Assembly (NCBI GenBank): GCA_024405395.1
Contig: JAKSOW010000001.1
Location: 6,277-70,276 of the forward strand
Source of the DNA: Kiritimatiellia bacterium
GTDB lineage: Bacteria; Verrucomicrobiota; Kiritimatiellia; RFP12; UBA1067
Length of the DNA stretch: 64,000 nt
Reading direction: 5' to 3'
Of this stretch, positions 1 through 40,800 are shown piece after piece (positions within the stretch are counted from its first letter, which is position 1; each line of letters starts with the position of its first letter). Position numbers and translations under genes: made by a program. The notes below the pieces were generated by a model. It saw nothing but the letters and a program-made list of their open reading frames with translations, had not been told where the DNA came from and made no database searches.

Positions 1-126
1 TCCTATAACTCTGTACCGCATCGGCAAAAAGCGCTGGATCCTGTATTTTGTCCCATGACGCATAGACGAAGATTGCGGCAATCCCAATTCGCAACACGCC
101 CTCAACAACAAGAACAAGCTTCTGCT

Positions 127-318: not shown

Positions 319-332
319 ATTCCGGGACGACT

Positions 333-1982: not shown

Positions 1983-2011
1983 GTCTTTATCCTTTCTTTC
2001 CCTGCTTGTGA

Positions 2012-5260: not shown

Positions 5261-5265
5261 TACCG

Positions 5266-6048: not shown

Positions 6049-6078
6049 TGTCTTACATCCTTTTTCAATTTTACTAGC

Positions 6079-6612: not shown

Positions 6613-6639
6613 GATCAGTTCTCCTTTTTTTGTAAGAAA

Positions 6640-7719
6640 TCAATCTTCAGCCCTTTTGGCTTCTACCACCAATTGAAACTCGCGAACTACCTTGGTTGCC
6701 GCCACATCTCTCCCTTCAGCGGTCACGGTAATATTATAACATCCTTTTCGCCAAAGTGTACCAGAAAAAACACCTTCTTCTGAATCCAGCGAAAGTCCGA
6801 ATGGCATACCCTCTGCGCTGAATTTCATCGGCCGCGTTGCCTCTTCAACTTCTAACCGGAACTTGAATTTCTTCCCTACCTTCGCAATGATCGGTTGTTC
6901 TGGAACCGAAAATACCGGCGGCCTACAAGCAGATACATTCCTGAAATTGGCTGTATAGGTTCCCTCAGTCATACCAGAGTCAATGACTAGCTTACGAGCA
7001 TAACCTACACACCTTCCATTAGGATCCATCCATCCCCAAAACACGCTACCAGAATCATCGGCAATTGCCGTGATTACAACTGTACCACGTTCATCCGCAA
7101 GCTCCCCAGAGACTGGATCCATCTCAATTTTTCCACTCCCTCCTGTTTGAGTGAATTTGAAATACTTTGAGTCAGGACTATGCAATATCTCTTTGGGATT
7201 GGATAATTTTGCCGTATAATCAATCAAAATCTTGTCCAGAGCGGAAATCAATTCCATCTGAAGAAATTTATGTCGAATTCCAGGCATCGTTCCACGACGA
7301 CCAGAGAAAGTCCTTTTTACCTCTGTCCCGTCTTCTTTCTTCCAATATACGCAAACTATCGGTATACCAGTTACCTCCTTGAACCCCTCTCGTTGAAAAG
7401 CTTCTGTTTGCTTGAACTGAGGATTCTTGTCATTTATATGTACCATAAAAATCTTACGGTCATCTTGCCACATCTTGAAATCCGTACTATTCATGGATTT
7501 GTTCAAGCGATAACAGAAACTACATTCAGTTCCAGCACTGATAACTAGAATCGGCTTATGAGCTGATTTCGCAACCGCTAGTGCATTAGTGAAATTATCG
7601 CTCCATACACCTGGCGTAACTTCATGTACGATAGGTATTTTGGCGCTTACTTCATCCCGTCCATGACACAAGGCTGTTACTAATAAAAAAATGAATACCA
7701 CGAGCTTACTCATCTTCAT
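6640..7719 (-). CDS. secreted thioredoxin-fold protein (CSFC active-site-like motif) with C-terminal putative-Ig (cadherin-like He_PIG) domain
   Basis: The track ORF is 6640..7752. The likely start is Met12 (MKMSKLVVFIFLLVTALCHG), overlapping the upstream stop by 1 nt. The thioredoxin-like motif is ILVISAGTECSFCYRLNKSM. The C-terminal FSAEGMPFGLSLDSEEGVFSGTLW is the classic putative-Ig motif. Confidence 0.8.
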   Translation of the reverse strand: MKMSKLVVFIFLLVTALCHGRDEVSAKIPIVHEVTPGVWSDNFTNALAVAKSAHKPILVISAGTECSFCYRLNKSMNSTDFKMWQDDRKIFMVHINDKNPQFKQTEAFQREGFKEVTGIPIVCVYWKKEDGTEVKRTFSGRRGTMPGIRHKFLQMELISALDKILIDYTAKLSNPKEILHSPDSKYFKFTQTGGSGKIEMDPVSGELADERGTVVITAIADDSGSVFWGWMDPNGRCVGYARKLVIDSGMTEGTYTANFRNVSACRPPVFSVPEQPIIAKVGKKFKFRLEVEEATRPMKFSAEGMPFGLSLDSEEGVFSGTLWRKGCYNITVTAEGRDVAATKVVREFQLVVEAKRAED

Positions 7720-9551: not shown

Positions 9552-9553
9552 GA

Positions 9554-10195
9554 TTATTCGTCATCCTCTTCTTCTTGATTTTCCTCAAGCCATTTCTGAG
9601 CGGTGGCAACATTTTTCCAATCATCACCCGTCACGTATTCATAAGCTTCTTTCGCCGCCGCACGCGCAACACCATTACTGCTGGCAATAAGATGAACGAT
9701 GATATCAATAGACAAAGTAGGACGCAGATCGTTCAGTTGAAATGAAATTGATTCCATAACTTCACGATCACGAACCAACATCATGGTCTCCTCAATGAGT
9801 ACACCCTTTTCATGTTCATCCTCAATATCATTAATTGCCGAATCCCATTGATCCTGTGCCTCTGATCTAACGTCTTCATCGCGGTCAAGCAAAAACGGCA
9901 TCAACGCCCGTACAGATTTTTTTCCAAACCAGCCAATGGATTCAACACAACGCAAGCGAACTACTGCATTTTTCGAATTCTTGAGCTTTTCTACATAAGA
10001 CAATGCCTCCTGAAAATCTTCCTTCTCTACAGCATTCTCAAGATCAGAAACCTGCTTCTCTTCGCTAACCGTACATTCTGATGTCTCTACAACATTCTTT
10101 TGCATTTCCTTATCGGGTTCAGACTTGCCGCAACCGCTAAGTAGACAAACAACAACAGCAATACCGACTATATTCTTCATTTCTATCACCTTCAT
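9554..10195 (-). CDS. HEAT-repeat lipoprotein (PBS-lyase HEAT-like), paralogue of 11688..12614
   Basis: The track ORF extends to 10342. The real start at Met50 gives an ATGA overlap with the upstream stop, verified in the sequence at 10192-10195. Lipobox LLSGCG is present. HEAT motif VRLRCVESIGWFGKKSVRALMPFLLDRDEDVRSEAQDQW. The C-terminal tail is acidic. Confidence 0.75.
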   Translation of the reverse strand: MKVIEMKNIVGIAVVVCLLSGCGKSEPDKEMQKNVVETSECTVSEEKQVSDLENAVEKEDFQEALSYVEKLKNSKNAVVRLRCVESIGWFGKKSVRALMPFLLDRDEDVRSEAQDQWDSAINDIEDEHEKGVLIEETMMLVRDREVMESISFQLNDLRPTLSIDIIVHLIASSNGVARAAAKEAYEYVTGDDWKNVATAQKWLEENQEEEDDE

Positions 10196-11685
10196 GGCAA
10201 TGAGGCCAGAACTGTAACGTTGCCTTGACCCTGAATTTTTATTGTTCCTGTGATTTTGCCAGAATTCAAATCCAGACTTAACAAACCGATGACCACATTT
10301 TTCCCAGATTTCCTGAAAACAGGCAACCAGGTCGTTACGCAATCGGTACTCTCAACCAACACACTCTTGGTATTGATGCGAAGTCTATTTGGAAACGTTC
10401 CCTTTATTGAAACTACACCTGTCTTCGCTGCCGCCTTCTTCATTACCAACTGTAGTTCTGTTTCATTTTCAAGGATAATCTTACGGTCCATAACATAAAG
10501 ACTCGCAGGAGACTTTGCTGTCCAAAGTGTATGAGAGAAACAAATTCTACGCGACACACCATCTGTAGATATGAAATTTCCTATCAGCTGCCCTTCGGAT
10601 GTAACAGCTAACAAAAATGAACATCCCACTCCCGTTCCTGAAATTTCCAATATACCATCCGATGACAAACTTTTCCACCCTTTAGAAACCGCCTTCAACT
10701 TGTTATCGACACCATCATACTGGATTTTTGCCTGTCCTTTCTCCGAGAGTGTTAAGGATATTATTCCTTGCATCTCGCCATCCTCTGACAATATAAATCC
10801 ACTTGTCTTCACCGACTTTGTGATCGTGAAGGCAGAACAGACTTTAGAAACTGGAACCACAGTAATCGTTAGGGTAAATGTCTGACTGCCCTTCTCTATT
10901 CCTACATCGCGTTTTTCAGCCAGAATCCAAGAACTGGTAAACGTACCTGCTTTAGTTGGATTTCCTTTAAACAAAACCCGTTTAGAGACAGAATCATAGG
11001 ATACCTTTATTCCCGAAGGGAGTCTTCCAGAAGCCTTCTTTACCTGCACCATCCCACCTACCGTATTGGTTACTTGAAAGTATTCCTCAAAAGGAATATG
11101 CTGAACTGACTCAACAGTTGCATTCCGAAGCGCAAACGCCGGCATTGGCTGATCCATAGGTGCCGATGGTCTAGGAGAATCTAAAGTAGAGGAAAATGCA
11201 AAGCCCGAATCAACCAAAACCTTCTCAACTGAACTAGTCAACTGCAACGCTAGGGGCCCAAGTTTCACCGGCATGTATCCATCGCGACCAACAAAAGCTC
11301 TCTCAATTATCGTTCCATCTGTTTTTGGCCAATAGATGCAAAACAACGGCAACTCATTAATCCACGGATTAATAGATCGTATGAATTTAAGTCCTGCTTT
11401 TGCATCTGAATCGCCATCATGACATACGCTCATTATTATGCGGTGGTCATAAAGCCATTCCTGAAAATCAGCACTATCTAGTGCTGACTTCATCTGATTG
11501 CACATTGGACATGAGCTACGTGCCCACAATAACAACATAGGAGTGCATGTCTCGTTAGCATAGCTAAGACCCTTGGAAAACCCCGCATTCCACTCACCTA
11601 AACATATCTCTCCCCTAGAAAAAGAAAAAGCCCATACACTGAAAACTAGAATGATATTAAAAGACAGTACCAAAATTTTTTTCAT
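10192..11685 (-). CDS. secreted thioredoxin-fold protein (CPMC motif) with putative-Ig domains
   Basis: Signal peptide MKKILVLSFNIILVFSVWAFS is present. The thioredoxin-like motif is LLLWARSSCPMCNQMKSAL. The He_PIG motif is RLPSGIKVSYDSVSKRVLFKGNPTKAGTFTSS. The C-terminal AAKTGVVSIKGTFPNRL matches the module shared with the protease and the small Ig protein. Confidence 0.8.
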   Translation of the reverse strand: MKKILVLSFNIILVFSVWAFSFSRGEICLGEWNAGFSKGLSYANETCTPMLLLWARSSCPMCNQMKSALDSADFQEWLYDHRIIMSVCHDGDSDAKAGLKFIRSINPWINELPLFCIYWPKTDGTIIERAFVGRDGYMPVKLGPLALQLTSSVEKVLVDSGFAFSSTLDSPRPSAPMDQPMPAFALRNATVESVQHIPFEEYFQVTNTVGGMVQVKKASGRLPSGIKVSYDSVSKRVLFKGNPTKAGTFTSSWILAEKRDVGIEKGSQTFTLTITVVPVSKVCSAFTITKSVKTSGFILSEDGEMQGIISLTLSEKGQAKIQYDGVDNKLKAVSKGWKSLSSDGILEISGTGVGCSFLLAVTSEGQLIGNFISTDGVSRRICFSHTLWTAKSPASLYVMDRKIILENETELQLVMKKAAAKTGVVSIKGTFPNRLRINTKSVLVESTDCVTTWLPVFRKSGKNVVIGLLSLDLNSGKITGTIKIQGQGNVTVLASLP

Positions 11686-11687
11686 TG

Positions 11688-12614
11688 CTACTCTCCTTCA
11701 GAATTTTGCCCTTCTTCTTTTGAAATCGTTTTATCAAAATTTTTTCTCTCTGGTATATCGTACTCTGTGTCGTTTATGATTTTCATACCAGAAATATCTA
11801 TTTCTGGGTCAAATACCTCTGGGTGAAGAGATGCTCGATAGACTGGTATGTCATCAGATTCTTCTGACAAATCAATGTTCTCATTGACCCAGGCTTGTGC
11901 AGCCTCAAACGTCGTATACTCCTCCCCTGTTAGAAAAGAATAAGACTCAAGTGCTACATCCACAACATCTGGATTCTCACTATTAATCAAGGCTACCACT
12001 GACTCAATCGCCGTAAAAGTTGATAGTTCATTCAAATTAAAAGCGATATCTTCCAACATATCACGGTCTTTAATCACACCCATTGTAGCTTCAATAATTG
12101 TAGCCTTAACACGCTCATCTTCGACTTGACCTAAAGCAGATAACCAAAGATCTTGTGCAGCATCACGAACATTTTCATCCTGATCAACAAGAAAAGGCGT
12201 CAACTCAGGAAGGGCTTCCTCATTAAACCAACCAAGTGCCTCAATGGCTCTAAGGCGAACAATCTCATTTGTGGAATTTCCCATTAGTTTTGCAAGTTCT
12301 TGAACTGTAGTGAAATCCTCGGCATTAAGAGCTTTATCAACTTCATCAAACAACCGTCGATCCTGTGGCGAAACCTCATCAGGAATTTGAGATCGATCAA
12401 CTTTTCGTTTTTCCCGCCTTAATGTATTAACTTTAATGCTCGTATCCCTTATCTCAACTAGTTGCTTAACATTTGCCGGTTTGCGCCTTGATATACGCAT
12501 TCCAGTTCCAGATCTATTAGTTTGCCCCTCAGTCTCTTTATTGGTTGAAATATTGAAAATGAAAATGGCTATCGTGAATAAAATTACTGAAACTAAAAAA
12601 ATCTTAATTTTCAT
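11688..12614 (-). CDS. HEAT-repeat protein with N-terminal membrane anchor, paralogue of 9554..10195
   Basis: The track ORF extends to 12659. Met16 (MKIKIFLVSVILFTIAIFIF) starts 2 nt after the upstream stop, verified in the sequence. HEAT motif VRLRAIEALGWFNEEALPELTPFLVDQDENVRDAAQDLW is nearly identical in pattern to the gene at 9554. The C-terminal tail is acidic. Confidence 0.75.
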   Translation of the reverse strand: MKIKIFLVSVILFTIAIFIFNISTNKETEGQTNRSGTGMRISRRKPANVKQLVEIRDTSIKVNTLRREKRKVDRSQIPDEVSPQDRRLFDEVDKALNAEDFTTVQELAKLMGNSTNEIVRLRAIEALGWFNEEALPELTPFLVDQDENVRDAAQDLWLSALGQVEDERVKATIIEATMGVIKDRDMLEDIAFNLNELSTFTAIESVVALINSENPDVVDVALESYSFLTGEEYTTFEAAQAWVNENIDLSEESDDIPVYRASLHPEVFDPEIDISGMKIINDTEYDIPERKNFDKTISKEEGQNSEGE

Positions 12615-12615
12615 T

Positions 12616-13692
12616 TTACTTCTTCCTTTTACGCGTTGGGAAAACGATACCTTCTCCATAAGGATATTTGATAATCGCTTTCTTACGCAAATCGCGAATA
12701 GTATTCCCGATAACCTCTTCCTGTCGTTCCTTAATCAATTCACGTTTTATGAATTCAGGATCCTCGTCAAATATTATGGCTGTTCGCCAAACAATGCGGG
12801 CAAGATGGCGAGCAAATACTGTTCCATCACCATTCACATCTTCTTTATCGCCCAAAAATTTTACTATCTCTATCCCATCATCGGTTGTCATAACATCTGT
12901 AATCTCACCAGGCTTTAAACATACTATGCTCTCCCAATAAACTGGGGCTTCCATTGAGAAGTCATCAGCCGTGCAAAAACCCAAGTCACCTCCTGGATTT
13001 TTTTCTTCATCCTGTGAAAAATCATCAGCCAGCTCAGAGAAATCTGCACCAGCCCTTGCCCTTGCCAAAACGTTAGTTGCTTCTGCATAAATGTGAATAT
13101 TTGTCTGCACCATACGCGCATTGTATGCAATCGTTTGCGCCACTTGATTTGAAATTGCTTCGGCAGATACCAGCATTTGAGTTGCCAATGCCGTCTTAAT
13201 GTAGTGCTGGCTCCATAAATCCAGCTCTAGCATCTCTTCAATCACATGACAATTAACACCTTTATCAAAGGAACAAAGTTGTTTGAAAGACATTCCTTTT
13301 TTACCATAGCTTAACGCATATTTTTCCTGAAGCTTCAACCTTTCTTCTTTTGTTGGCACAAAATTCATCCGTTTTGCTTCACTTGCCAACAATGCCATCG
13401 GAAAAAAGTTTTGATATTCTTTCTCCCGAAACCGCGTCTTTAGCATTTGAAACTTATGATCTGCTATAGTACCGACTTTCGCTTTGGCAAAACTCAATTT
13501 TGCCATAATTTGACCCTCATATTGTCCCTTGGTCAACTTTATACCATTGACTTCTACAAGCACCGAGTCAGAGTTGAGGCTACTATATGTTTCTCTCGTG
13601 CCTTTCGCACCATAAACATTGTTTATCCCGAAAGTAAGAAACAACAAAACTATACGAACAATTTTAAATGGAGTATAAGTTTTCATTTCCAC
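12616..13692 (-). CDS. periplasmic chaperone/peptidyl-prolyl isomerase, SurA-N-like domain plus PpiC (parvulin) domain
   Basis: A signal-peptide-like N-terminus is present. The parvulin motif region is FSELADDFSQDEEKNPGGDLGFCTADDFSMEAPVYWESIVCLKPGEITDVMTTDDGIEIVKFLG. Confidence 0.8.
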   Translation of the reverse strand: MEMKTYTPFKIVRIVLLFLTFGINNVYGAKGTRETYSSLNSDSVLVEVNGIKLTKGQYEGQIMAKLSFAKAKVGTIADHKFQMLKTRFREKEYQNFFPMALLASEAKRMNFVPTKEERLKLQEKYALSYGKKGMSFKQLCSFDKGVNCHVIEEMLELDLWSQHYIKTALATQMLVSAEAISNQVAQTIAYNARMVQTNIHIYAEATNVLARARAGADFSELADDFSQDEEKNPGGDLGFCTADDFSMEAPVYWESIVCLKPGEITDVMTTDDGIEIVKFLGDKEDVNGDGTVFARHLARIVWRTAIIFDEDPEFIKRELIKERQEEVIGNTIRDLRKKAIIKYPYGEGIVFPTRKRKK

Positions 13693-13778
13693 TGCTATCT
13701 CAAATGTAAAAAGCGGGAGGAAGCACTTTCATGCATCCACCCGCCTTGTCTCAATTATTCGCCCTTCGGCGAATAACC

Positions 13779-14657
13779 TTACTTAGCATACGCAGGCATA
13801 TAGGCAGCAACACCCTTAGTACCATTGGCAATCTTCTTGCTGTACTTCAGCTTCCACGTACCATACGCAGCAAGCAGTTCAGAACCAGCAGATTCGGTAA
13901 GATCGTCACAAACCGCACCGAAATCATCGCAGATACCAACAAGACCAGCCCAGTGATAGTCACACTCACGAATGGTAGGATCACCCGTCACCGAACCGGC
14001 AACACTACCAGAAACGTTCTTGACAACACCCTTCTTGACATCAAACGAACCAAGACCAGCGAGCTTAAGGTCGTAATCACTGAAATCAGCCGTTTCAGCA
14101 TTAAAACCACCTGCCCCATCCGAGACATTACGCCAAGCATAGTCAATCCAACCCATGTCACCATTCTCATCCTTGGCGTACACCTGCTCCTTACCAGCGA
14201 AGTCCCAGACCATGGAAACCTTGTTGGCCTTCTTCTCGTAACGATAAACCTCATCGCCAACAGCCGACTTGAAGTCATTAGCCTTGTATTTCTCAACAGT
14301 CTTACCGCCTTCGACAACAGTCTCCGTAGTGAGGTAATCACCAATCACGTGCTGGAAGCCCTTATCGGTACGCCAAATCACGTACTGGGCACCATCAAAA
14401 TCGCAAGCCGACTTGCAGTTCCAAATGATACCCTTCAGCGTACGCTTACCATTCTTGTAGTAGGAGACACACGTTTTCGTCTCACCCAAGCACGCACTAC
14501 CACCCTTGCACTTAAGGGTCTTGGGAGCGAGCGTCTTAAGCTTGATCGTAAGATCATAAGCCTGACAATCCGAACTCGGATCAATCGTGCAGAGGTCACC
14601 TGCAAAAACACCAATACCAGCAGCTGCAACAGCGGCAGCAATCATCAACTTCTTCAT
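13779..14657 (-). CDS. secreted Cys-rich protein (paralogue of 5266..6048), unknown function
   Basis: The track ORF extends to 14750. The start at Met32 (MKKLMIAAAVAAAGIGVFAG signal peptide) was verified in the sequence. About 16 Cys. The conserved C-terminus GTWKLKYSKKI...AYMPAYAK is shared with the 5266 gene. The overlapping plus-strand ORF 13731..14732 is low-complexity antisense. Confidence 0.75.
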   Translation of the reverse strand: MKKLMIAAAVAAAGIGVFAGDLCTIDPSSDCQAYDLTIKLKTLAPKTLKCKGGSACLGETKTCVSYYKNGKRTLKGIIWNCKSACDFDGAQYVIWRTDKGFQHVIGDYLTTETVVEGGKTVEKYKANDFKSAVGDEVYRYEKKANKVSMVWDFAGKEQVYAKDENGDMGWIDYAWRNVSDGAGGFNAETADFSDYDLKLAGLGSFDVKKGVVKNVSGSVAGSVTGDPTIRECDYHWAGLVGICDDFGAVCDDLTESAGSELLAAYGTWKLKYSKKIANGTKGVAAYMPAYAK

Positions 14658-16247: not shown

Positions 16248-16829
16248 TCAAAGAGCCTGCAGCGAACGAAGCTCCGCCATTTCCGCACGACGTGCGCGTG
16301 CCCAAGCCGCCACATCGACTTCGGGCGGCAATGTGGGCGTCACATAAGGCATGCCGCATGTTGCGCAGCAGGCACCTTTGTTCAGCGGAGCACCACAAGA
16401 GGGACATCTCGTCTCAAGCACTTCGCCACAAATGGCGCACCGCTTGGCACCCACGAATGGCGCAGCCATGCCGGCAATCGGGCGGAGAAAAAGACGCCCC
16501 TCCAGCACATAGGGTGCATTCGAAAGGCAATGTGCGGACGGACAAAAGCCAATCAGCGCATCCGCAGGCAAAACCATGGAAGGCAAGGCGGGCATTGCAT
16601 TCTGGACTGCATCAGCCACTTTCTTGGCCGCGGGTTCCAAAGACACGCCCACTTTCTCGGCAAACTTCTTGATTACCTCTTCCGAGAGTTTTGTACCGTC
16701 TCCAGCTTCGAACATTGAAATGGCCGGCTGTTTGCAGCCAAGTTCACGCGCCAACGCGGACTGGGAAATACCCTGTTCGCGGCGTGCCTGGCCGATGCTG
16801 CGGCAAATCTCTGGAGAAATGTTCTTCAC
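16248..16829 (-). CDS. XRE-family HTH transcriptional regulator with C-terminal Cys-rich zinc-ribbon domain
   Basis: The HTH is GISQSALARELGCKQPAISMFEAG. C-terminal CxxC pairs (CAICG, CPSCG, CATCG) are present. Confidence 0.85.
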   Translation of the reverse strand: MKNISPEICRSIGQARREQGISQSALARELGCKQPAISMFEAGDGTKLSEEVIKKFAEKVGVSLEPAAKKVADAVQNAMPALPSMVLPADALIGFCPSAHCLSNAPYVLEGRLFLRPIAGMAAPFVGAKRCAICGEVLETRCPSCGAPLNKGACCATCGMPYVTPTLPPEVDVAAWARARRAEMAELRSLQAL

Positions 16830-18479: not shown

Positions 18480-19574
18480 TCAGCTGATGCGCAGCGGCAT
18501 CATAACGTACAGGAACGGCACCGAACACTTGATCAATGCCGGCGAAGAGCCGTTCTTGAGCTCGATGTAGACTTCATCCTCGTCAATGGCCTTCAGCGGA
18601 TCCATCACAAACTGGGGATTGAAGACAATCTCGATCGTCTCGCCGTCATACTTGATCGGCACCGTATCACGGGCCGCACCCACATCGGCGGCGGCTGACG
18701 CCACGGTGAGGCGATTGGACTCAAACGTGAGACGCGTAGAATTGGACTCATCCATCGTCATGACGCTGACGCGGTCAAGGGCCTCCAGCAGAAGCTTGCG
18801 CTCCACGGTGACGCGCTCGGTGCAGCCGGTGGGGATGACCTGACGATAGTTGGGATAGACATCATCCAGAAGCTTCGAGTAGATCTGCGTGTCGCCCAGA
18901 TTGAAGGACACCTGCGAGCGTTCCACGGTGACGCGCACATCGCCATCGGACGAAAGCGAACGCTGAAGCTCGGAGACCACCTTCGTGGGGAGCACGATGT
19001 CCTTCTCCGCATCGGCGGGGAATTCGACCTCATGCTCGACCAAGGCCAAACGCCGCCCATCCGTGGCCACCATGGTGAGCTTCGCGTCCTTGAAGCTCAT
19101 CAGAACGCCCTTCAGGGTCTTGCGCGTATCGTCCTGCGAGGCCGCGTACGAGGTCTTGCGCAGCATTTCGCGAAGCGCCATCTGCTTGATGATGTAGGCA
19201 AACGTGCCGGAATCCTTGGGGAGCTGCGGGAAGTCGGCGACATTCATGCCGGCGATGTTGAACACGGCGGAACCCGCCGACACAACCGCCTTGTCCTCCG
19301 CATCGGTCTCGAGCTCAACGGGGCCTTCCGCCGCCTTGGCGATCGTGGCCGCCAAAAGCTTCACGGGGAGCGTGGTCGCGCCTTCAGCCAGCACTTCGCA
19401 GGGAACGACGCTGCGGATCGAAATGTCAAGATCCGTGGTGGTGAGGAAGAGCTGCTTGTCCTTCGCCTCGATCAGCACATTCTGGATGATCTGCAGTGTA
19501 CCCTTTGACACCACGATGTTCTGAACCTTCTTGAGGCCTTCCAGAAACTTGGAACGTATAATCCTGATTTTCAT
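18480..19574 (-). CDS. dnaN: DNA polymerase III beta sliding clamp
   Basis: 364 aa with a typical three-domain clamp sequence, immediately downstream of dnaA. Confidence 0.95.
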   Translation of the reverse strand: MKIRIIRSKFLEGLKKVQNIVVSKGTLQIIQNVLIEAKDKQLFLTTTDLDISIRSVVPCEVLAEGATTLPVKLLAATIAKAAEGPVELETDAEDKAVVSAGSAVFNIAGMNVADFPQLPKDSGTFAYIIKQMALREMLRKTSYAASQDDTRKTLKGVLMSFKDAKLTMVATDGRRLALVEHEVEFPADAEKDIVLPTKVVSELQRSLSSDGDVRVTVERSQVSFNLGDTQIYSKLLDDVYPNYRQVIPTGCTERVTVERKLLLEALDRVSVMTMDESNSTRLTFESNRLTVASAAADVGAARDTVPIKYDGETIEIVFNPQFVMDPLKAIDEDEVYIELKNGSSPALIKCSVPFLYVMMPLRIS

Positions 19575-19860: not shown

Positions 19861-21297
19861 TCATTCGAGGACGTCGGAGATCTGGCGGCCCAGCTTGGAC
19901 ACAATCTGGCCGATTTCCTGCTTGAGGTCGGCCTCGACGCTGATGCGCTTCTGGATCTGCTGCGAACCGTAGAAAATCGTGGTGTGCTTGCGGTCGAAGG
20001 CCTTACCGATCGTCGGCAGCGAATCCGTGGTGAGCTTGCACGCCAGGAACATCGCGACTTGGCGGGGCTGGACAAGGGCCTGGGTGCGTCCGGGCGCCTT
20101 GATGTCCTTCACCGTGACGCCGTAGTGCTCCGCCACCGCATTGATGACCGCTTCCGGCGTAATGCTCTTGATTGTCACTTCCTCCTCTATCATGTCCTTG
20201 AGGAGATATTTCGAGATCTCGATGGTGAGCGGCGTATCGGGATTGACGTCCATGAAGGTGGTTACCCGGTTCAGGGCACCTTCAATGGCCCGCACATGCG
20301 AACGGATGTTTTCCGCAATGTAGTTGAGGATATCGTCCTGGATCAGACGATGGCGGGCCTGCATCTTGGACCTGAGGATCGCCAGACGCGTCTCATACGA
20401 GGGGGATTCGATTTCCACCACCATGCCCTGCTGGAAGCGCGAGATCAGCCTGTCCTCCAGACCTCCCTGGAGCTCCTTTGGCGCCTGGTCGCAGGTCATG
20501 ACTATCTGCTTGTTGTACATGAGCAGACTGCTGATGGTGTTGAAGAATTCCTCCTGGAAGCTCTTCTTGCCGACGATGAACTGAACGTCGTCGATGAGCA
20601 GAAGATCGTATTTCCTGTAGCGGGCGCGAAACGCGGGAAGCGCCGCCCCGGCGAGCGCATTGACGTATTCGTTGAGGAACGTCTCGGACGTGATGTAGCA
20701 AACCGACGCCTCGGCATTATGCTTCATGACATAATGGCCGATGGCCTCCATCAAGTGCGTTTTGCCCAGACCTGTGCCGCCCCAGATGAAAAGCGGATTG
20801 TAGGCGGTCCTTCCAAGCCCCTTCGCAACGGCGGTAGCCGCAGCATGGGCGAAGGAATTTGACGGGCCCCTCACGAAGTTCTCGAACGTATAGTTCTCGA
20901 GGAGCGGCAGAGTGGAAGGCAGTACACGCGCACGCCGAGGCGTCGGAGCTTTGGGAGCCGGCTTTTCCGAATTGGTCTGAACGGGAAGAACGGGCGGAAC
21001 CTCTACGGTTTTCTTGGTTTCCTCTTTCTTGATGACCTCAAAGACCACTTTGATGCCATCCCCCAGACCTGCCGCCCGAATCGTCTCCTCCAGAGCCTTG
21101 GCGTAGAGCCCCGTGAACCAATCCCTCTTCATCTCCGTGGTGACGCCGATCCTGAATTCGCTGCCCACCAGACTCTGAGTGAGGAACTGAGGAGAATGCA
21201 GTTCCCAGCGATTGATTTCCTCAGTCGTTTTCAGGCTCATTCTGTAGCTGGAAGCGATGGCTTGCCAGACAGATGTAAGGTTGCTTGTTTCTGACAT
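19861..21297 (-). CDS. dnaA: chromosomal replication initiator protein DnaA
   Basis: Walker A GGTGLGKTHL, AAA+ sensor motifs and the C-terminal DNA-binding domain are present. The antisense ORF 19660..20862 is rejected. Confidence 0.97.
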   Translation of the reverse strand: MSETSNLTSVWQAIASSYRMSLKTTEEINRWELHSPQFLTQSLVGSEFRIGVTTEMKRDWFTGLYAKALEETIRAAGLGDGIKVVFEVIKKEETKKTVEVPPVLPVQTNSEKPAPKAPTPRRARVLPSTLPLLENYTFENFVRGPSNSFAHAAATAVAKGLGRTAYNPLFIWGGTGLGKTHLMEAIGHYVMKHNAEASVCYITSETFLNEYVNALAGAALPAFRARYRKYDLLLIDDVQFIVGKKSFQEEFFNTISSLLMYNKQIVMTCDQAPKELQGGLEDRLISRFQQGMVVEIESPSYETRLAILRSKMQARHRLIQDDILNYIAENIRSHVRAIEGALNRVTTFMDVNPDTPLTIEISKYLLKDMIEEEVTIKSITPEAVINAVAEHYGVTVKDIKAPGRTQALVQPRQVAMFLACKLTTDSLPTIGKAFDRKHTTIFYGSQQIQKRISVEADLKQEIGQIVSKLGRQISDVLE

Positions 21298-23875: not shown

Positions 23876-25843
23876 TTAGTGATGTCCCCTTTTGATGATG
23901 ATGGCCAGAACCGAAATGTCGGCAGGATTGACGCCCGGAATGCGGCCCGCCTGTGCCAAAGTCTCCGGACGATACTTCTTCATCTTTTCCCGGCTCTCAT
24001 ACCTGATGGCCGGACACTTGTCGTAATCCAGCCAATGGGGAATCTTGATGTTCTCGTCGCGCTTGGCCCGTTCGGCGGCAATGTTCTCCTGGCGAATGTA
24101 GCCGGCGTAGTGGTGACGGATTTTCACCTGTTCAACCACAGGATCAGGAACCTGAATGGAAGAGCCGCCGATTTCGATCTCGGCGTTAGGGTTACCGTCA
24201 GGCTGAACAGACAATACGCGTTTCAGCTTTTTGTTGTCCTGCTCGATGGTGTTGATCATATCGGCAAACGATTTGGTTTCCTCCCGAATGACCTTCGGCA
24301 GAATGCCTACCCTTTCCGCTGCTTCCTGCAGGCGGTAGCGGGCATTGTCCTGACGCAGGATCAGGCGGCGCTCGGCACGTGATGTGAACATGCGATAAGG
24401 TTCATCGGTTCCCTTGGTGACCAAGTCATCGATCAATACGCCAATGTACGCATCCTGGCGGCTGATCACAAGCGGGCTTTCATGCTTGACCTTGAAGGCG
24501 GCATTTATTCCCGCCATGATGCCCTGGGCGGCAGCTTCCTCATAACCCGTTGTCCCGTTGATTTGGCCGGCAAAGAACAGACCGGATATACGCTTGGATT
24601 CCAGCGAATGCGTCAGCTCACGGGCGTCAATTCCATCATACTCAATGGCGTAGGCATACGCAAGGAATTCGGCGTGCTCCAGACCTGGAACGGAATGGAC
24701 CAGTTCTTCCTGAACCTGACGAGGAAGAGAGTTGGATAGACCATTAGGATAGATGATCTGCCCTGCACGATCTTCGGGTTCAAGGATGACATGATGACCA
24801 TCAACACCCGCGAATCTGACTATCTTATCCTCAATCGATGGACAATACCTGACGCCCGTTCCACTTATCATTCCACCATAAAGAGATGAATCCTTAAGAT
24901 GCGAACGTATGATTTCATGGCTGATTGGCGTTGTATGGGTTGCCCAACAGATAGCTTTAGCGGAATTCAAAGGCCACGGAGCGAACAAATCCGCATTGTT
25001 CCACGTGGAACAGTCCGTTGAACTGGATTCTGATGCGGAATTGGCATTGTTCCACGTGGAACAAAGACCAGAAATGGGTTCAGATGAAGCTAAATCATGG
25101 TTGTTCCACGTGGAACAATTGATTCCGGGTGTTAAACCATGGGAAAGGAGGTATCTGGTTCTGAGGGAGAAATAAGGCGGATTATCCTCTCCTTCCTGCG
25201 GTGTACACACCGAAAAGTCGCAGCTTGATGCCTTTAAGCGTGGCGGTGTACCTGTTTTAAGCCGAATAAGCTGAAAACCGAGTTTGGAAAGCGAATCGGA
25301 TAGCTGATTGACGGCTGGCCGCCCATCTCCGCCAGATTCCGTGCATTCCTTGCCAATGAATATCCGCCCTCGCAAAGCCGTTCCGGAGGTTATCACCAAA
25401 GCCTCACAGTTGATCAGTCCGTTCTTCTCGGTTCTGATTCCGGTTACGGTGTCATGATTGGTTATCACCTCAAGGGCGGCATCCTCGATCACGGTCAGGT
25501 TTTTGGTGCTGTTGACAACCAACTGCATGCGCCGTGTGTATTCGCTCTTGTCGCATTGTGCTCGTGTTGCCTGCACGGCTGGACCACGGCTCAAGTTCAA
25601 TGTCTTTTCCTGGAGCGAAGTGAGGTCGGTGTTGAATCCCATTTCGCCGCCCAACGCATCCAACTCAAACACCAGATGACTTTTGGCAAGTCCGCCAATG
25701 GAAGGATTGCAGGGCATACGCGCAATGGCAGACTTGAGCCCCGTAACCAAAAGGGTGTCAATGCCCATGCGTGCAGCGGCCAATGCCGCTTCGGCTCCGG
25801 CATGGCCTCCACCAACCACAACAATTGAAAAATCTGTTTTCAT
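23876..25843 (-). CDS. mnmG: tRNA uridine 5-carboxymethylaminomethyl modification enzyme MnmG (GidA), carrying an in-frame insertion of about 55 aa
   Basis: The FAD-binding N-terminus is [20 protein letters not shown]. The insertion encodes CSTWNN three times (see the repeat feature). Confidence 0.95.
24996..25118. repeat. three copies of the 18-bp perfect palindrome TTGTTCCACGTGGAACAA (E-box CACGTG core) spaced 50 and 54 bp apart, inside the mnmG coding sequence
   Basis: Read directly at 24996-25013 (last base G), 25047-25064 and 25101-25118. Each copy translates on the coding strand as CSTWNN. Confidence 0.8.
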
Positions 25844-25936
25844 TGCAGATATTATAACATGCTTTAAGACAAAATATAAGAGATAACAGATAAAAGATAA
25901 ACGAGGGCCTCTGCTTTTCTCGATGAAATCTTTAAG

Positions 25937-26176
25937 ACAGGATTTACAAGATTAACAGGATTTAGAAGCCTGACCGATTGAGATAATTAATGTGGCGATT
26001 GCAAGTCGTGGTCGGTGGGTTCATTGAAACCAGTCCTGTCTGTTTAATAGGCGTAGGTTCAGGTAGGACAACATTGACGATGCCGCCGCTAATGAGATAT
26101 TGCAGTATCCTCAATAAATAAAGCAACATCGGGGAAATCCTGTTAATCCTGTTAATCCTGTCGGAAATCAGGATCT
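25937..26176. repeat. imperfect 28-bp inverted repeats (GACAGGATTTACAAGATTAACAGGATTT / AAATCCTGTTAATCCTGTTAATCCTGTC) flanking about 170 bp in the mnmG upstream noncoding region
   Basis: Read directly. The right arm contains a tandem ATCCTGTTA x2 and an extra ATCCTG/CAGGAT hairpin. No ORF lies inside. Confidence 0.3.
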
Positions 26177-27191
26177 GCTCTGTCAGTCCAGTTCTCAGTT
26201 AGTTTCCGTTAAGATTTTGACTGAAAAGCCCGCCAGTAGAATTCATCAGTCAAAAACCTGAATCGCCTAAGCAATCAAGGAAAGGGGCTGGAAAAATCCC
26301 GGAATCATGAGCGTCATATTCACCTCGACAAAGGAGTGCGTGATTTGAGAATTGAGGGCTAAAAGGCGAATGTGTCTTGTCCAATCATATCGAAAACATC
26401 GCGATTGAATTGTCCGGAAGGGTTCATTCTCAATCGTTTTCCGTGGCCGCCAGATGGCGGTTTCCGTGTCCTTCCATGGTCTTCTACCTGGCGAAACAAC
26501 ATTATTCAACATATCAAATAACTTCTGGCTTTTTGGGAAAATGCAGATGCATTTGCCATACTGGAGATCCTCTCGTTCCGCTAAAACTTCAATGATCAAA
26601 TGATCCGATGAGATTCACTATCAACAGTTATTCACATTTATGAAACGAGCGATTATGCGACAAACAGAAGAGGCCCAAGTACGGGAAACCTTGATTTTAC
26701 GGGCTTTTATGCTTGTGCCGAAAAAGTCAACAGAAAGATATGCAAAATACTGTCATAATTATGAACTACTTATGAACAGGTTTTAGGCAACGGTTCAGAA
26801 CTATTGACAGGTGATTTCTGCAATGTAATTCACATTATCGGCCCATAAGCATGGAAGGGCCGAATGTTATGACGGAAACGGAAAGGAAACCCCTTATGAT
26901 CTGGGGTGTGGTCGTCAAAACGGAACTCACCGTAGAGCATCATCCCCTGCGGCAAGGCTCAGTACCTGAAGCATGGGGATTTGGTATCAGAAGCAGGAAT
27001 TCGTAGTATCTGAGTCAAATGAAACGGTATCTGAGATGAATTCCATTGTCTGGGTAGGATTGCAGTACATGTTCCATGACTGTTTCATTTGGAATGTCGG
27101 AAAAGGGGCTGAAAGCGTCTCATCTCAGAGTGTAATGCGTTATGCGTCAAATTGGCGGCAACGGAGCAGTTGCGAATACAACAAATTAAAA

Positions 27192-27221
27192 TTGTATACA
27201 TATTAAAGGATATGCTATACT
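27192..27221 (+). promoter_or_regulatory. putative sigma70 promoter TTGTAT-N18-TATACT for the beta-helix gene; RBS AAGGAGGAAAG at 27239
   Basis: An AT-rich stretch sits at the GC transition. The hexamers were read from the sequence. Confidence 0.3.
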
Positions 27222-27252
27222 TTAAGCATCGTCAACCGCAAGGAGGAAAGAA

Positions 27253-37853: not shown

Positions 37854-40800
37854 ATGGGAAACTATGGTCTCAAATCCGGTTTGGGTGGCCGCCTTGCGGC
37901 TGCCCTCTGCCTGTTTGCGACGGCGGTGCACGCCGCCTCCGCGACCTTTTCCCATGATGCCAATGCCACGGTGGCCGATTCCCGGCGCCTGACGGAGGCC
38001 ACCACGATTGCCGTCGCCAAGGATGCGCGTGTCGTCTACTCCGGCGTGTTGTCGGGGCCCGGCTCGTTGCGGCTGACGGGTGGTGGCACGCTGGTGCTGA
38101 CGGGCGCCAACACGTTCACGGGCGGCGTCACGGTTGAGGCGGGCTACCTCGTGTGCTCCAACGCCTTGGCCCTGGGCACGGGCACGGCAACCATCATGGG
38201 CCAGCGGGACGACTATTCGGGCCCCTGCGAGATTGGCTTCTGGGGTGTTGGCCCCGGCCGTTCGGATTCGGTGACGTACGCCAATCCGATTCGCGTGACG
38301 GGCTCCTCGACGGCCCTCTATCCGGCGCTCTACTTCTTCGGGCAGAACTGCGTCCTGAACGGCAGCGTCACCGCCGAGCAGGACCTTGTCTTCTACGAAG
38401 ACCACAATGCCGCCAAATCCATCAATAGCGCCAACTGGGACCGTTATCAGCATGTGCTTTCGGCCACCTTCAACGGTCCGGTGACCGCCGCCGGAATGAT
38501 CGGCTATCGCGGCATGACGCGCTGGGCCTTCAACGGCAAGGTCACGACCCCGCTTTTCCACACGGCGCTCACGCGCCCGAAACGTCCGGACGACATTGAC
38601 TCGACTGACGGCAACAACAATGCCCATGGCGCCTTCCTGCTCAATGCGGCCAACGCCATCGGCGAATTCAGGAATGCGCGTTCGCCCGTTTACCTGGGCG
38701 TGGAGAATGCGCTTGCGGGCTCGGTCCTTTCCTGGGAGAAGAACACCTCGCTCTGCACGGTGGGCTTCTTCTACAGTCAGCTTTACGGCGGCAGCTACCG
38801 CAACCAGCGTGTGGCCGGGCTTTCCAGCGTGTCGGCACCCGTGGCGGCCAGCTACGATTGGCGGGTTCATGGCGCCTCTTCGGCGAATCGGTTTGTGCTG
38901 GCGGGCACAGGCGCAGCGGCGGAGACTTTCGCGGCCAGTGCCGCCCTCACGGGATCGATGTCCTTCATTGTGGATGCGAGGCCCGACTACTCGCAGACGC
39001 TTCAAGACCGCCACCACACGTTTTCGGGCACGCTCGCCGTCTCCAACGGAACCCTGAACGTGGAACGTGGTTCGTTCTCCAATGTGACGGCGCTTGTGGT
39101 GGGCGCACACGGCACCCTGCGCCTCGACACGCCGCTCTCGGGCGGGCAGGTCTTCCCCAAGCTGTCTTCGCTGGAGATCGTGAAGGGCGGTGTGCTGGCC
39201 GTGCCCGAAACCATGCTGCTCACCACGAAGACGCTCATTGTGAACGGCACGAAGAAATCGCCCGGTCTCCATTACGCCGAAAGCGTGCCCGGCTTCACGG
39301 GGGCGGCGATAGTCTGCCTCAATGCCGACGGCTCCATGCCGGTGGTGGGCGATCTGACGGGCGCTCAGACGATCCGCGAACCGTTTGCGGCTCTGGGTGA
39401 CCGCATGTGGCGGCTTGCCGCGGGCGAGACGCTCACGTTTGAGGGAACGCTTCGCCGTGTCGAGGGCATGGTCACGGTGGTGAGCCCCAAGAACACCGCC
39501 AATCCGGCACGCGTGGTGCTCAAGGGCACCAACTCGATCGACGGGGCGCTCGTCACCACGGCGGCGGTGCTGCAGGTCTCCGGTCTGCTGGCGAACTCCT
39601 TGCGTCAGGACCAGGGCCAGGCCGCCAATCGCGGCGGGAGTGTGGTCACGGTGGATGGCTATCCGGGGGGCGGCTATCTTTTCGTCTCCAATGCCGTCAT
39701 CGAAAAGCCGGTCTATCTGCATGGCTCGGGCTATGGCATTCTGAGGAGTGCCGCCGCCACCACCACCATCCTGAAGGGCCACGTCGCCTGGCCCACGCCC
39801 TGGCCCGGCTTTACGGCGGCGAAGGATTCGGAGATCGTCTTCGAGGGCGGCTTCACGAGTGGCCACACCCTGCGCACAAACGGACAGGGCACATTCCGTG
39901 TGCGCAATACGCCGGTGACGGCCACGGCGAGCGTGGGCTGGAACATCGGCGGCGGCACCGTGGCGTTGGATGTGTGCGGCAACAAGTTCAGCTATCTGTG
40001 CGCCGGGCACTACAACGGCGACACGGCGGCGATTGTGTGCAACGCCGATCGGGCCTTTGACGTCACCGCGAACGCGGGCCTGGTGAACGGCTGCTGGTGG
40101 AACGATGGCTACAGCGGATTCTCGGTGATGACGTCTGGCTCCGGAATCGTGGACCTGAAGGGCACGGTGCAGCAGGTGAACAAGTACGCGGGCAGCAGCC
40201 GTTCGACCCTGCGGGGCGAGGCGGGCGCCCGGCTGGAGATTCTCCAGCAGACGCCGGACTCGCGGCTCAAGGCCCCCGAGCTCTACTTCGCGTCCGCGAT
40301 CGAAGGCGAGGTGACGGTGGCGATGTACGGCCCCGGCAGACTCGTCCTCACCAACCGCGTATTTGAGACGACGGGCGGATTGGAGGCCACGAACGGCATT
40401 GTGGAGATTGCCCGGGGGGCGCGTTGGCTGGGCACGGGTGACGTGACCTTGCGTGGCTCGGCCAGGCTGGTGCTGCATGAGCGCGACCAGCTGGCCCCCT
40501 CGGTGCATCTGCGGATCGGTGAGGCGGCGAAGATCGAGATTCCCGCCGGCACGTCCCTGACGGTAAAGACCGTGGACGTGTGGGATGGCACGGGCTGGCT
40601 GCCGCTGAAGACGGCCGGCAGCCATGCGGCGGGCGACGGCGGTATGCTTGCGGGATTCATCACGGGCGGCGGCACGCTGAACATTGTTGGCGAAGAGGTC
40701 GCCGCAGGCGTGGCGATGCCGCTGGAGTGGAATGTCACCTATCCGGTGGATGTGCCGTATGAGGTGGAGATCGACACGGCCAAACTTCATGCGCTGGGCG

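What the first reader, a model, noticed from the sequence alone, without database searches (positions are those of the whole stretch)
24996..25118. Three in-frame 18-bp perfect palindromes (TTGTTCCACGTGGAACAA) inserted in mnmG, encoding a CSTWNN x3 insertion
MnmG here has an insertion of about 55 aa in the normally conserved linker between DNP and RSNL. The inserted DNA consists of three copies of an 18-bp perfect palindrome with a CACGTG core at 50 and 54 bp spacing. Each copy is read as Cys-Ser-Thr-Trp-Asn-Asn. Perfect palindromes maintained inside an essential conserved gene suggest a tolerated in-frame repeat or mini-element insertion, or a functional DNA or RNA site such as a dimeric transcription-factor operator array, an RNA hairpin trio or a recombination site.
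Basis: seen in the sequence. Interest (0 to 1): 0.65.

Follow-up and report, generated by a model that had tools for sequence, protein, structure and literature searches.

The report
Chromosome centromere sites inside mnmG gene
The three palindromes are classical parS sites, the bacterial "centromere" DNA that the segregation protein ParB binds; in this bacterial class (Kiritimatiellia) they sit inside a floppy extra loop of the tRNA-modifying enzyme gene mnmG next to the replication origin, so the odd peptide repeat CSTWNN is only a by-product of translating DNA kept for another purpose.

Summary
Three copies of TGTTCCACGTGGAACA lie at 24997-25012, 25048-25063 and 25102-25117, inside a ~56-residue insert of mnmG (23876-25843, minus strand). 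The 16-mer is identical to the validated Pseudomonas aeruginosa parS2/parS3 centromere site. The gene lies 2.6 kb from dnaA-dnaN, at the GC-skew turning point.

The DNA is under selection, not the peptide.
- All 113 distinct homologue inserts (61-75% identity) carry 1-5 copies at the same loop.
- In more distant relatives the same 16-mer is read in all three frames (CSTWN, FHVE, VPRGT), sometimes within one gene.
- All 28 perfect sites in 11 genomes use exactly the parS codons.
- Linkers are hypervariable and the loop is predicted disordered.

Each genome carries one site type. TGTTCCACGTGGAACA is ancestral. Derived clades use TGTGCCACGTGGCACA or (T)GTTTCCACGTGGAAAC(A), changed symmetrically in all copies. 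The last variant also sits directly upstream of parA-parB operons in other metagenomic contigs.

Best explanation: an origin-proximal ParB-loading array embedded in a coding gene. No ParB gene was found in the DNA held, so binding is inferred. parS is well known. Its class-wide housing as an array in an expanded enzyme loop, with switches in site sequence, appears undescribed. I rate it a new variant of a known kind.

The parts
24997..25012 (.). parS site 1: TGTTCCACGTGGAACA, a perfect 16-bp palindrome. It encodes MnmG residues 278-283 (CSTWNN) on the minus strand.
   Evidence: Identical to P. aeruginosa parS2/parS3 (PMC4368675).
25048..25063 (.). parS site 2: a perfect 16-bp palindrome, also perfect at 18 bp. 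It encodes residues 261-266 (CSTWNN).
25102..25117 (.). parS site 3: a perfect 16-bp palindrome, also perfect at 18 bp. It encodes residues 243-248 (CSTWNN).
24974..25141 (-). In-frame insert of mnmG (residues 235-290). It is a hypervariable, predicted-disordered loop that houses the parS array.
   Evidence: The HMMER alignment to solved MnmG structures splits at query 234/291. AlphaFold pLDDT is below 50 for residues 238-287. Linker identity is 0.21 against 0.74 for the core. Variable columns are 20/58 inside the insert against 45/605 outside, within one 90% cluster.
23876..25843 (-). mnmG (gidA), the tRNA U34 carboxymethylaminomethyl-modification enzyme and host gene of the array.
   Evidence: Pfam GIDA and SAM_GIDA_C. 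100% identical to NCBI MCQ2389800.1, from a Kiritimatiellia MAG.
19861..21297 (-). dnaA, the replication initiator and an origin marker, 2.6 kb from mnmG.
   Evidence: Pfam Bac_DnaA and Bac_DnaA_C. Synteny is conserved in L081-L083.
18480..19574 (-). dnaN, the beta sliding clamp.
   Evidence: Three Pfam DNA_pol3_beta domains.
25844..27252 (.). 1.4-kb intergenic region upstream of mnmG, at the GC-skew turning point. It is a candidate oriC region (inferred, not shown).
   Evidence: Cumulative GC skew reaches its minimum at 22-24 kb and rises afterwards. Large intergenic gaps also lie upstream of mnmG in L081 and L082. Consensus DnaA boxes are not enriched.

Best explanation
The three palindromes are chromosomal parS sites, the centromere-like loading sites for the ParB-CTP clamp. 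They form an origin-proximal array embedded in the coding sequence of mnmG.

Proposed mechanism:
- ParB dimers recognise each 16-bp dyad, close into clamps and spread over the adjacent oriC-dnaA region.
- This complex is the cargo for ParA-driven origin segregation and probably a loading point for SMC.
- The array sits in a surface loop of MnmG that tolerates any sequence. TGTTCCACGTGGAACA has no stop codon in any frame, so it can be translated through.
- The CSTWNN repeats and the linkers are translated passengers. Selection acts on the DNA word.
- The arrangement is ancestral to a large Kiritimatiellia clade. Copy number and spacing turn over quickly. In two derived clades every copy changed symmetrically to a new palindrome, as expected if the sites track a change in specificity of one trans-acting dimeric reader.

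Shown here: sequence identity to validated parS, position near the origin, frame-independent DNA conservation, one site type per genome, clade-wise switching, and association of the 18-bp variant with parAB operons elsewhere.

Inferred: ParB binding, spreading, and the roles in segregation and SMC loading in this organism.
For: 1. The 16-mer equals P. aeruginosa parS2/parS3, which are necessary and sufficient for segregation (PMC4368675). It also matches the P. putida and M. xanthus sites and fits the consensus TGTTNCACGTGAAACA (PMC7022226).
2. Origin context: dnaA and dnaN lie 2.6-5 kb away and the cumulative GC skew has its minimum at 22-24 kb. The synteny mnmG-antiporter/EIIA-dnaA-dnaN-rlmL is conserved.
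3. In 10 of 11 related genome loci, perfect sites occur only inside mnmG and nowhere in the +-10 kb flanks. In L009 (48% identity) three perfect sites lie just outside the gene.
4. Conservation is frame-independent. The same 16-mer is read as CSTWN, FHVE[HQ] or VPRGT, with frames mixed within one gene in L004, L008 and L059.
5. All 28 sites use the exact parS codons. The summed log10 probability, given the peptide and each gene's codon usage, is -74.5.
6. The constraint crosses codon boundaries. The next residue always has an A-starting codon after CSTWN or CATWH (120/120) and a CA-starting codon after VSTWK (267/273).
7. Linkers are hypervariable (0.21 against 0.74 identity, 7-58 aa) and the loop is predicted disordered.
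8. Each of 113 inserts has one motif class only.
9. DNA confirms TGTTTCCACGTGGAAACA x4 in L081 and TGTGCCACGTGGCACA in L082 and L083.
10. The 18-bp class is monophyletic (64/64) and the TGTTCC class is basal.
11. The 18-bp variant lies 61 bp upstream of parA-parB in L134 and between yidC and parA(B) in L101 and L094 (domains confirmed by Pfam). It also lies about 150 bp upstream of a ParA Walker A motif (regex match only) in L123.
12. Outgroup Clostridia and Erysipelotrichia carry intergenic arrays of TGTTTCACGTGAAACA or TGTTCCACGTGGAACA near mnmG.
Against: - No parA or parB was found in the 64-kb window or in the flanks of 14 related loci plus 32 metagenomic mnmG loci. A cognate ParB in this lineage is therefore assumed. 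The only indirect support is that ParABS homologues were reported in all 12 OMM12 gut strains, a set that represents five phyla including Verrucomicrobia (PMC10197239).
- Whole genomes could not be searched, so I cannot say these are the only or the main parS sites.
- No binding data exist.
- The 18-bp variant departs from the canonical half-site at a position reported as invariant in P. aeruginosa, so it requires an altered ParB specificity that was not examined.
- The palindromes also give the mRNA unusually strong structure (z = -5.96), so an RNA-level effect cannot be excluded as an additional function.
Confidence: 0.85

Rival explanations
1. The palindromes act mainly at the RNA level. 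Hairpins or long inter-palindrome stems in the mnmG mRNA would control its translation, stability or ribosome pausing.
For: The insert RNA folds far better than shuffles (-60.9 kcal/mol, z = -5.96). The symmetric half-site changes in derived clades would also preserve hairpins.
Against: - The centre CCACGTGG, which would be the loop and closing pairs, is invariant and itself palindromic. A hairpin does not need that, whereas a dyad-symmetric duplex site does.
- All copies in a genome are identical, and they switch together by clade. Independent hairpins would not need to do so.
- Identical sites occur outside mnmG in L009 and in intergenic DNA of outgroups.
- The 18-mer occurs upstream of parAB.
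- The strong fold follows automatically from repeating a palindrome.
Confidence: 0.05
2. The sites are operators for a different dimeric regulator that controls mnmG or the origin region. Candidates are the XRE-family HTH protein conserved nearby (16248-16829, minus strand) or an E-box-type CACGTG binder.
For: An HTH_3 gene is conserved in the same neighbourhood in the window and in L081-L083. No ParB gene was found in the DNA available.
Against: - The full 16 bp, not just CACGTG, is identical to validated parS.
- The same word forms origin-proximal arrays in unrelated phyla.
- The 18-bp variant sits at parAB promoters.
- Operators placed 700-850 bp inside a coding region, with variable number and spacing, are atypical for repressors.
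Confidence: 0.05
3. CSTWN, VSTWKQ and CATWH are functional peptide repeats of MnmG, for example a Cys/Trp motif for metal or partner binding, and the DNA palindromy is incidental.
For: Within the closest clade the motif is always read in the same frame and is invariant, while the linkers vary.
Against: - In relatives the same DNA is translated as FHVE[HQ] or VPRGT, even within one protein.
- There is zero synonymous variation in 28 sites.
- The constraint extends into the first base or bases of the next codon.
- The loop is predicted disordered.
- L009 has the sites outside the ORF.
Confidence: 0.02
4. The insert is a neutral or selfish repeat, either a miniature mobile element or a slippage-generated microsatellite-like expansion, with no function.
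For: Copy number and spacing vary rapidly. L059 shows a tandem 66-bp unit duplication. Degenerate copies exist.
Against: - Perfect 16-mers are kept across lineages whose MnmG cores are only 52-70% identical, while everything between them is scrambled.
- There are no copies elsewhere in the window or flanks.
- There are no terminal repeats or target duplications, and no unit is conserved beyond the 16-mer.
Confidence: 0.02

Closest known systems
Chromosomal parS of Pseudomonas aeruginosa (parS2/parS3), P. putida and Myxococcus xanthus; general consensus TGTTNCACGTGAAACA
   Same: The 16-bp sequence is identical (TGTTCCACGTGGAACA). It is clustered in several copies close to oriC, and it is dyad-symmetric for a dimeric HTH protein (PMC4368675, PMC7022226).
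   Different: Here all detected copies lie inside one protein-coding gene, in an insertion that exists only to hold them. parAB are not adjacent. Binding is untested.
parS sites inside coding genes, e.g. the Bacillus subtilis site within spo0J (from my own knowledge of Lin and Grossman 1998; not checked here)
   Same: A parS word is embedded in an ORF and translated.
   Different: Those are single sites that fit into existing coding sequence. Here an array of 1-5 perfect sites (six counting degenerate copies in some metagenomic loci) sits in a lineage-specific, hypervariable insert of up to several hundred residues. It is conserved across a class-level clade and leaves a visible peptide repeat.
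Intergenic origin-proximal parS arrays near mnmG/rsmG/parAB in Firmicutes-type genomes (outgroup loci L032, L055, L070, L071)
   Same: The words are the same or canonical, with 2-4 copies within a few hundred bp, next to mnmG.
   Different: No long ORF runs through them. They are intergenic.
Specificity divergence in the ParB family (parS versus the Noc-binding site; from my own knowledge of Jalal et al. 2020, not read here)
   Same: Symmetric changes in both half-sites accompany a change of reader specificity.
   Different: Here the switches (TGTTCC to TGTGCC, and to GTTTCC with one extra base pair per half-site) occur within orthologous chromosomal centromeres at one fixed locus. The ParB side was not examined.

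Membership tests
Chromosomal parS (ParABS centromere) | 16-bp dyad matching TGTTNCACGTGAAACA or an experimentally validated parS | tested here: met
   There are three perfect TGTTCCACGTGGAACA sites. The sequence is identical to P. aeruginosa parS2/parS3 and is listed for P. putida.
Chromosomal parS (ParABS centromere) | Location in the origin-proximal part of the chromosome, usually clustered | tested here: met
   dnaA and dnaN lie 2.6-5 kb away. The GC-skew minimum is at 22-24 kb. The three sites fall within 121 bp. The same synteny is found in relatives.
Chromosomal parS (ParABS centromere) | Conservation of the DNA word itself, independent of local coding function | tested here: met
   Three reading frames are used. 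Codon invariance gives log10P = -74.5. Sites lie outside the ORF in L009.
Chromosomal parS (ParABS centromere) | A cognate ParB (and usually ParA) encoded in the same genome | tested here: inconclusive
The 18-bp variant is adjacent to parAB in other contigs of unknown taxon.
Chromosomal parS (ParABS centromere) | Specific ParB binding, CTP-dependent clamp loading and spreading; segregation defect when the sites are mutated | not testable with these tools
   This needs ChIP-seq, in-vitro binding and genetics.
Miniature mobile element / REP-like repeat | Many dispersed copies, with a unit that has defined ends or target duplications | tested here: not met
   There is no further copy in the window with up to 3 mismatches, and none in the flanks of relatives. 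Only the 16-mer is shared between copies.
Structured cis-regulatory RNA (hairpin element) | Stem covariation with a free loop sequence; occurrence tied to transcripts | tested here: not met
   The loop and centre are invariant and palindromic in all three classes. Copies are identical within each genome. Sites occur in intergenic DNA elsewhere. No Rfam search was run.
Protein repeat motif of MnmG | The peptide is conserved whatever the codons | tested here: not met
   The peptide differs by frame (CSTWN, FHVE, VPRGT) while the DNA is identical.

The most novel reading that the evidence does not exclude
In Kiritimatiellia the chromosomal centromere has been relocated wholesale into a protein-coding gene. 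A disordered expansion loop of MnmG serves as the dedicated, perhaps sole, parS cassette next to oriC. It has been maintained since the clade's ancestor while copy number, spacing and even reading frame turn over. The clade also records at least two complete switches of centromere sequence: TGTTCC to TGTGCC, and to GTTTCC with one extra base pair per half-site. These imply co-evolution with ParB, and the state can be read directly from MnmG protein sequences (CSTWN / CATWH / VSTWKQ).
Probability: 0.45. Interest if true: 0.7.

Novelty: new variant of a known kind. Interest (0 to 1): 0.55.

Why it matters
- parS and ParB are textbook. Why parS sites cluster, how their number and position evolve, and how site and reader specificity co-evolve are stated open questions (Jalal and Le 2020, PMC7333895).
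- This clade offers a natural series at one fixed, alignable locus. There are hundreds of orthologous arrays with different copy numbers, spacings and frames, and three centromere words whose order of descent can be read from a tree.
- It shows how DNA-level selection can write a conspicuous repeat into an otherwise highly conserved enzyme. That is a caution for anyone interpreting such repeats as protein motifs or domain insertions.
- The peptide signatures CSTWN, FHVE, VPRGT, VSTWKQ and CATWH are a cheap way to locate origins and centromeres in fragmentary MAGs of this group.
- Practically, it predicts that MnmG annotation, length filters and HMM-based quality checks will flag these genes as aberrant when they are not.

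Tried and rejected
- Consensus DnaA boxes (TTATCCACA, up to 1 mismatch) are not enriched in the window: 7 found against 7.2 expected. oriC could not be pinned down.
- The AATCCTGT cluster upstream of mnmG is enriched in the window but absent upstream of mnmG in 14 related loci. I did not use it as origin evidence.
- Motif and Pfam searches for ParA and ParB found nothing in the window, in related genome loci or in mnmG-type metagenome loci.
- Literature searches used parS with mnmG, gidA, Kiritimatiellae or Verrucomicrobia. None returned a description of this arrangement. Livny et al. 2007 is not held in the library.
- My first regex for the insert flanks failed and was replaced.
- My early claim that the motif is always read in the same frame holds only for the closest clade and was overturned.
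- A CACGTG-anchored scan missed degenerate copies with CACATG, so I redid it allowing mismatches.
- The apparent mixed array in P0131 (CATWH plus VPRGT) is not evidence of mixing, because VPRGT is encoded by both the TGTTCC and TGTGCC words.
- I did not run a fold search on the AlphaFold model, because solved MnmG structures already place the insert.
Full report
**1. The observation**

The window contains TTGTTCCACGTGGAACAG at 24996-25013 and TTGTTCCACGTGGAACAA at 25047-25064 and 25101-25118. The 16-bp core TGTTCCACGTGGAACA is perfect in all three. Start-to-start spacing is 51 and 54 bp. Shuffles predict 0.05 matches and none reached three. The 64-kb window holds no other copy, even with 2-3 mismatches.

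The sites lie in a 655-aa ORF on the minus strand (23876-25843). This ORF is MnmG/GidA (Pfam GIDA 1.4e-139, SAM_GIDA_C). It is 100% identical to NCBI MCQ2389800.1 from a Kiritimatiellia MAG. Each site is read as TGT TCC ACG TGG AAC AAY, which gives CSTWNN. Alignment to solved MnmG structures breaks at query 234/291. About 56 residues therefore replace a 3-10-residue loop (Aquifex 2zxh residues 257-261; E. coli 3cp2 chain residues 249-260).

**2. What the sequence is**

TGTTCCACGTGGAACA is the perfect-palindrome parS2/parS3 of Pseudomonas aeruginosa. The paper's title states that a single site from that origin-proximal cluster is necessary and sufficient for proper chromosome segregation (PMC4368675). 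The same word is listed for P. putida, and M. xanthus differs by one base. The general chromosomal consensus is TGTTNCACGTGAAACA (PMC7022226).

The genomic context fits. On the same strand as mnmG follow a Na+/H+ exchanger-EIIA gene, dnaA (19861-21297), dnaN (18480-19574) and an rlmL-like gene. The cumulative GC skew reaches its minimum at 22-24 kb. The array is therefore origin-proximal. I could not define oriC itself. Consensus DnaA boxes are not enriched. A local AATCCTGT cluster upstream of mnmG is not conserved in relatives.

**3. Relatives show that the DNA, not the peptide, is conserved**

Among the 120 best MnmG homologues (61-75% identity) there are 113 distinct inserts. Every one has an insert at the same place, and each carries repeats of exactly one short motif:

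| Motif | Inserts | Copies per insert |
|---|---|---|
| CSTWN | 28 | 2-4 |
| VSTWK(Q/H) | 75 | 2-5 |
| CATWH | 10 | 1-4 |

DNA from related genomes confirms what these motifs encode.
- In 10 of 11 Kiritimatiellia-type loci, perfect TGTTCCACGTGGAACA occurs 1-4 times inside mnmG and nowhere in the +-10 kb flanks.
- The VSTWKQ type is TGTTTCCACGTGGAAACA, four perfect copies in L081.
- The CATWH type is TGTGCCACGTGGCACA, in L082 and L083.

In more distant relatives the identical 16-mer is translated in the other two frames. It reads as (L/M)FHVE(H/Q) in L006, L008, L027 and L059, and as VPRGT in L003, L004 and L006. Frames are mixed within a single gene in L004, L008 and L059. The 50%-identity representatives closest to the query show the same pattern in proteins up to 1169 aa.

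Three further measures point the same way.
- All 28 perfect sites in 11 genomes use exactly the parS codons. Given the peptide and each gene's own codon usage, the summed log10 probability is -74.5. The sites are not phylogenetically independent, but synonymous positions are saturated at these distances.
- The constraint crosses codon boundaries. The residue after CSTWN or CATWH always has an A-starting codon (120/120). After VSTWK it is Q or H in 267 of 273 cases. E and K, common before CSTWN, never precede VSTWK, where a codon ending in T is required.
- Between the sites nothing is conserved. Linker identity is 0.21 against 0.74 for the enzyme core, and linkers are 7-58 residues long. Even inside one 90% cluster, 20 of 58 insert columns vary against 45 of 605 elsewhere, and the motifs stay fixed.

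AlphaFold gives pLDDT below 50 for residues 238-287, although two other stretches (74-95 and 462-490) are also below 50 (mean pLDDT 76, pTM 0.79). The three palindrome variants have no stop codon in any frame. The canonical TGTTTCACGTGAAACA has TGA in one frame.

**4. Evidence for one trans-acting dimeric reader**

No protein combines motifs that require two different site types (P0131 is explained). On an NJ tree of MnmG with the insert masked, the three classes behave as follows:
- The 18-bp class is strictly monophyletic (64 of 64 leaves).
- The TGTG class is mostly one neighbouring group.
- The TGTTCC class is basal and paraphyletic, so it is ancestral.

All copies in a lineage therefore changed together and symmetrically in both half-sites, while the centre CCACGTGG never changed. 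That is what a dyad-symmetric duplex site tracking one protein's specificity should do. Independent RNA hairpins would need neither a palindromic, invariant loop nor identity between copies.

In the 18-bp class, variation concentrates on the two outermost bases, so the constrained word is GTTTCCACGTGGAAAC.

A metagenome scan for the 18-mer returned 80 loci.
- 32 have it in, or at the edge of, an mnmG homologue. In 30 of these, Kiritimatiellia-type at 53-80% identity, it is in the insert, and 22 of the 32 carry two or more exact copies. L123 and L142 are about 38% identical and have a single site outside the gene.
- 48 have it elsewhere. 45 of these are single sites, in contigs of varied composition.
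- In L134 it lies 61 bp upstream of a parA-parB operon (Pfam ParB_N, HTH_ParB, ParB_C).
- In L101 it lies between yidC and parA-parB, and in L094 between yidC and parA.
- In L123 it lies about 150 bp upstream of a ParA Walker A motif (regex match only).

The derived word is therefore also found in the classical parS position beside parAB.

**5. Contrast with other lineages**

In L009, a Kiritimatiellae MAG with 48% identical MnmG, three perfect sites lie just outside the gene. The first is 63 bp past the stop codon. Clostridia and Erysipelotrichia outgroups have 2-4 canonical or TGTTCC-type sites near mnmG in DNA with no long ORF through it. Some MnmG proteins of other phyla (about 45% identity, normal length) carry a single FHVEQ in the same loop, namely P0141 and P0157. 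The loop may therefore have hosted a site before the array expanded. L059 contains a tandem 66-bp duplication that includes the site. Several loci hold degenerate copies such as TGTTCCACATGGAACA. Arrays appear to grow by duplication and to decay.

**6. Mechanism**

Shown here:
- identity to validated parS;
- position near the origin;
- frame-independent DNA conservation;
- one site type per genome, with clade-wise switching;
- association of the variant with parAB elsewhere.

Inferred from established knowledge of ParABS (PMC7022226, PMC7333895):
- ParB dimers load at each dyad as CTP-dependent clamps and spread over the oriC-dnaA region.
- The resulting complex is moved by ParA and probably loads SMC.

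MnmG tolerates the array because the loop is disordered and the word contains no stop codon, so CSTWNN is a passenger. The palindromes also give the mRNA a very stable structure (z = -5.96). That follows automatically from repeated palindromes, but it could affect translation as a side effect.

**7. The weak point**

No parA or parB was found in the window or in any held flank, and I could not search whole genomes. ParABS homologues are reported in all 12 OMM12 gut strains, a set that represents five phyla including Verrucomicrobia (PMC10197239), but that is indirect. Binding is untested. My confidence that these are functional parS sites is about 0.85.

**8. Rivals**

| Rival | Assessment | Confidence |
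|---|---|---|
| Functional peptide repeat | Contradicted by the three-frame reading and the codon invariance | 0.02 |
| Mobile or neutral repeat | Contradicted by perfect conservation amid scrambled linkers and by the absence of other copies | 0.02 |
| RNA hairpins as the primary function | Disfavoured by the invariant palindromic centre, the identity between copies and the occurrence of sites outside transcripts of mnmG | 0.05 |
| A different dimeric regulator, for example the XRE-family gene conserved nearby (16248-16829) | Cannot be formally excluded without ParB, but does not explain identity to parS over all 16 bp | 0.05 |

**9. Novelty**

parS, its origin-proximal clustering and its occasional location inside genes are known. 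Full-text searches did not turn up this arrangement. What appears undescribed is a clade-wide arrangement with these features:
- The detected centromere array lives in a dedicated, rapidly evolving insertion of a conserved enzyme gene.
- It is read in any frame.
- It leaves a diagnostic peptide repeat.
- The centromere word has switched twice, once by adding a base pair to each half-site.

I rate it a new variant of a known kind, with interest 0.55. It bears directly on the open questions of why parS sites cluster and how site and reader co-evolve (PMC7333895).

Noticed in passing
window 25937-26161: Five copies of AATCCTGT lie in the 1.4-kb intergenic region upstream of mnmG. Two are on the minus strand at 25937 and 25955, and three are tandem at 9-bp spacing at 26136, 26145 and 26154. 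The window holds 7 against 1.35 expected. The cluster is not conserved upstream of mnmG in 14 related loci. These may be species-specific origin or regulator sites.
   Followed up: partly
window 1-14000 versus 28000-64000: There is a strong composition break. GC is 0.41-0.52 with GC skew of -0.15 to -0.22 on the left, and 0.61-0.66 with weakly positive skew on the right. The break is larger than a replication-strand effect would give. A genomic island or a MAG mis-join is not excluded.
   Followed up: no
window 37854-48383 (+) and 49537-55584 (+): Very long ORFs of 3509 and 2015 aa lie in the high-GC part, with long ORFs also on the opposite strand. The 2015-aa ORF has only an ABC1/APH kinase-like hit at residues 1472-1551. 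The 3509-aa ORF was not annotated.
   Followed up: partly
L134 1213-1230; L101 508-525; L094 2426-2443; L123 4089-4106: The 18-bp palindrome TGTTTCCACGTGGAAACA sits directly upstream of parA(-parB) in contigs of unknown taxon (GC 0.36-0.60). In L094 and L101 it lies between yidC and parA. L134 also has a degenerate second copy about 30 bp upstream.
   Followed up: partly
proteins P0153, P0196, P0197, P0214, P0228, P0260; P0204, P0221, P0247, P0174, P0222: MnmG representatives of other phyla show parS-encoded peptides elsewhere in the protein. MFHV(E/K)(Q/H) occurs at or near the start (residue 2-3; residue 6 in P0228), suggesting a parS overlapping the start codon or a mis-called start. VSRET, VPRGT or FHVEH occurs at residues 461-709. 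parS inside mnmG may be more widespread than this clade.
   Followed up: no
L059 10905-11052 and the insert downstream: Three parS sites lie at exact 66-bp spacing within a duplicated unit (GEQPRPLFHVEHR...). A separate low-complexity repeat (ESAVNA.EGTVQKPE-like) lies in the same 233-residue segment. This is evidence that arrays grow by tandem duplication.
   Followed up: partly
L007 10991 and 11252; L083 2128 and 2335; several 18-mer loci: Degenerate copies have a single change in the core (CACATG or CATGTG) or at the outer bases. The peptide motif is often still intact: for example ACG to ACA is synonymous. These may be decaying or weak sites.
   Followed up: partly
L009 2953, 4883, 4947: A more distant Kiritimatiellae MAG has three perfect parS just outside mnmG. 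The last two share extended flanks (CCTGTTCCACGTGGAACAATTGTC). Its MnmG still has a long insert with no perfect site. The array may have moved out of, or not yet into, the gene.
   Followed up: partly
window 16248-16829 (-): An XRE-family HTH_3 gene is conserved in the mnmG-dnaA-dnaN-rlmL neighbourhood in the window and in L081-L083. Its function is unknown.
   Followed up: no
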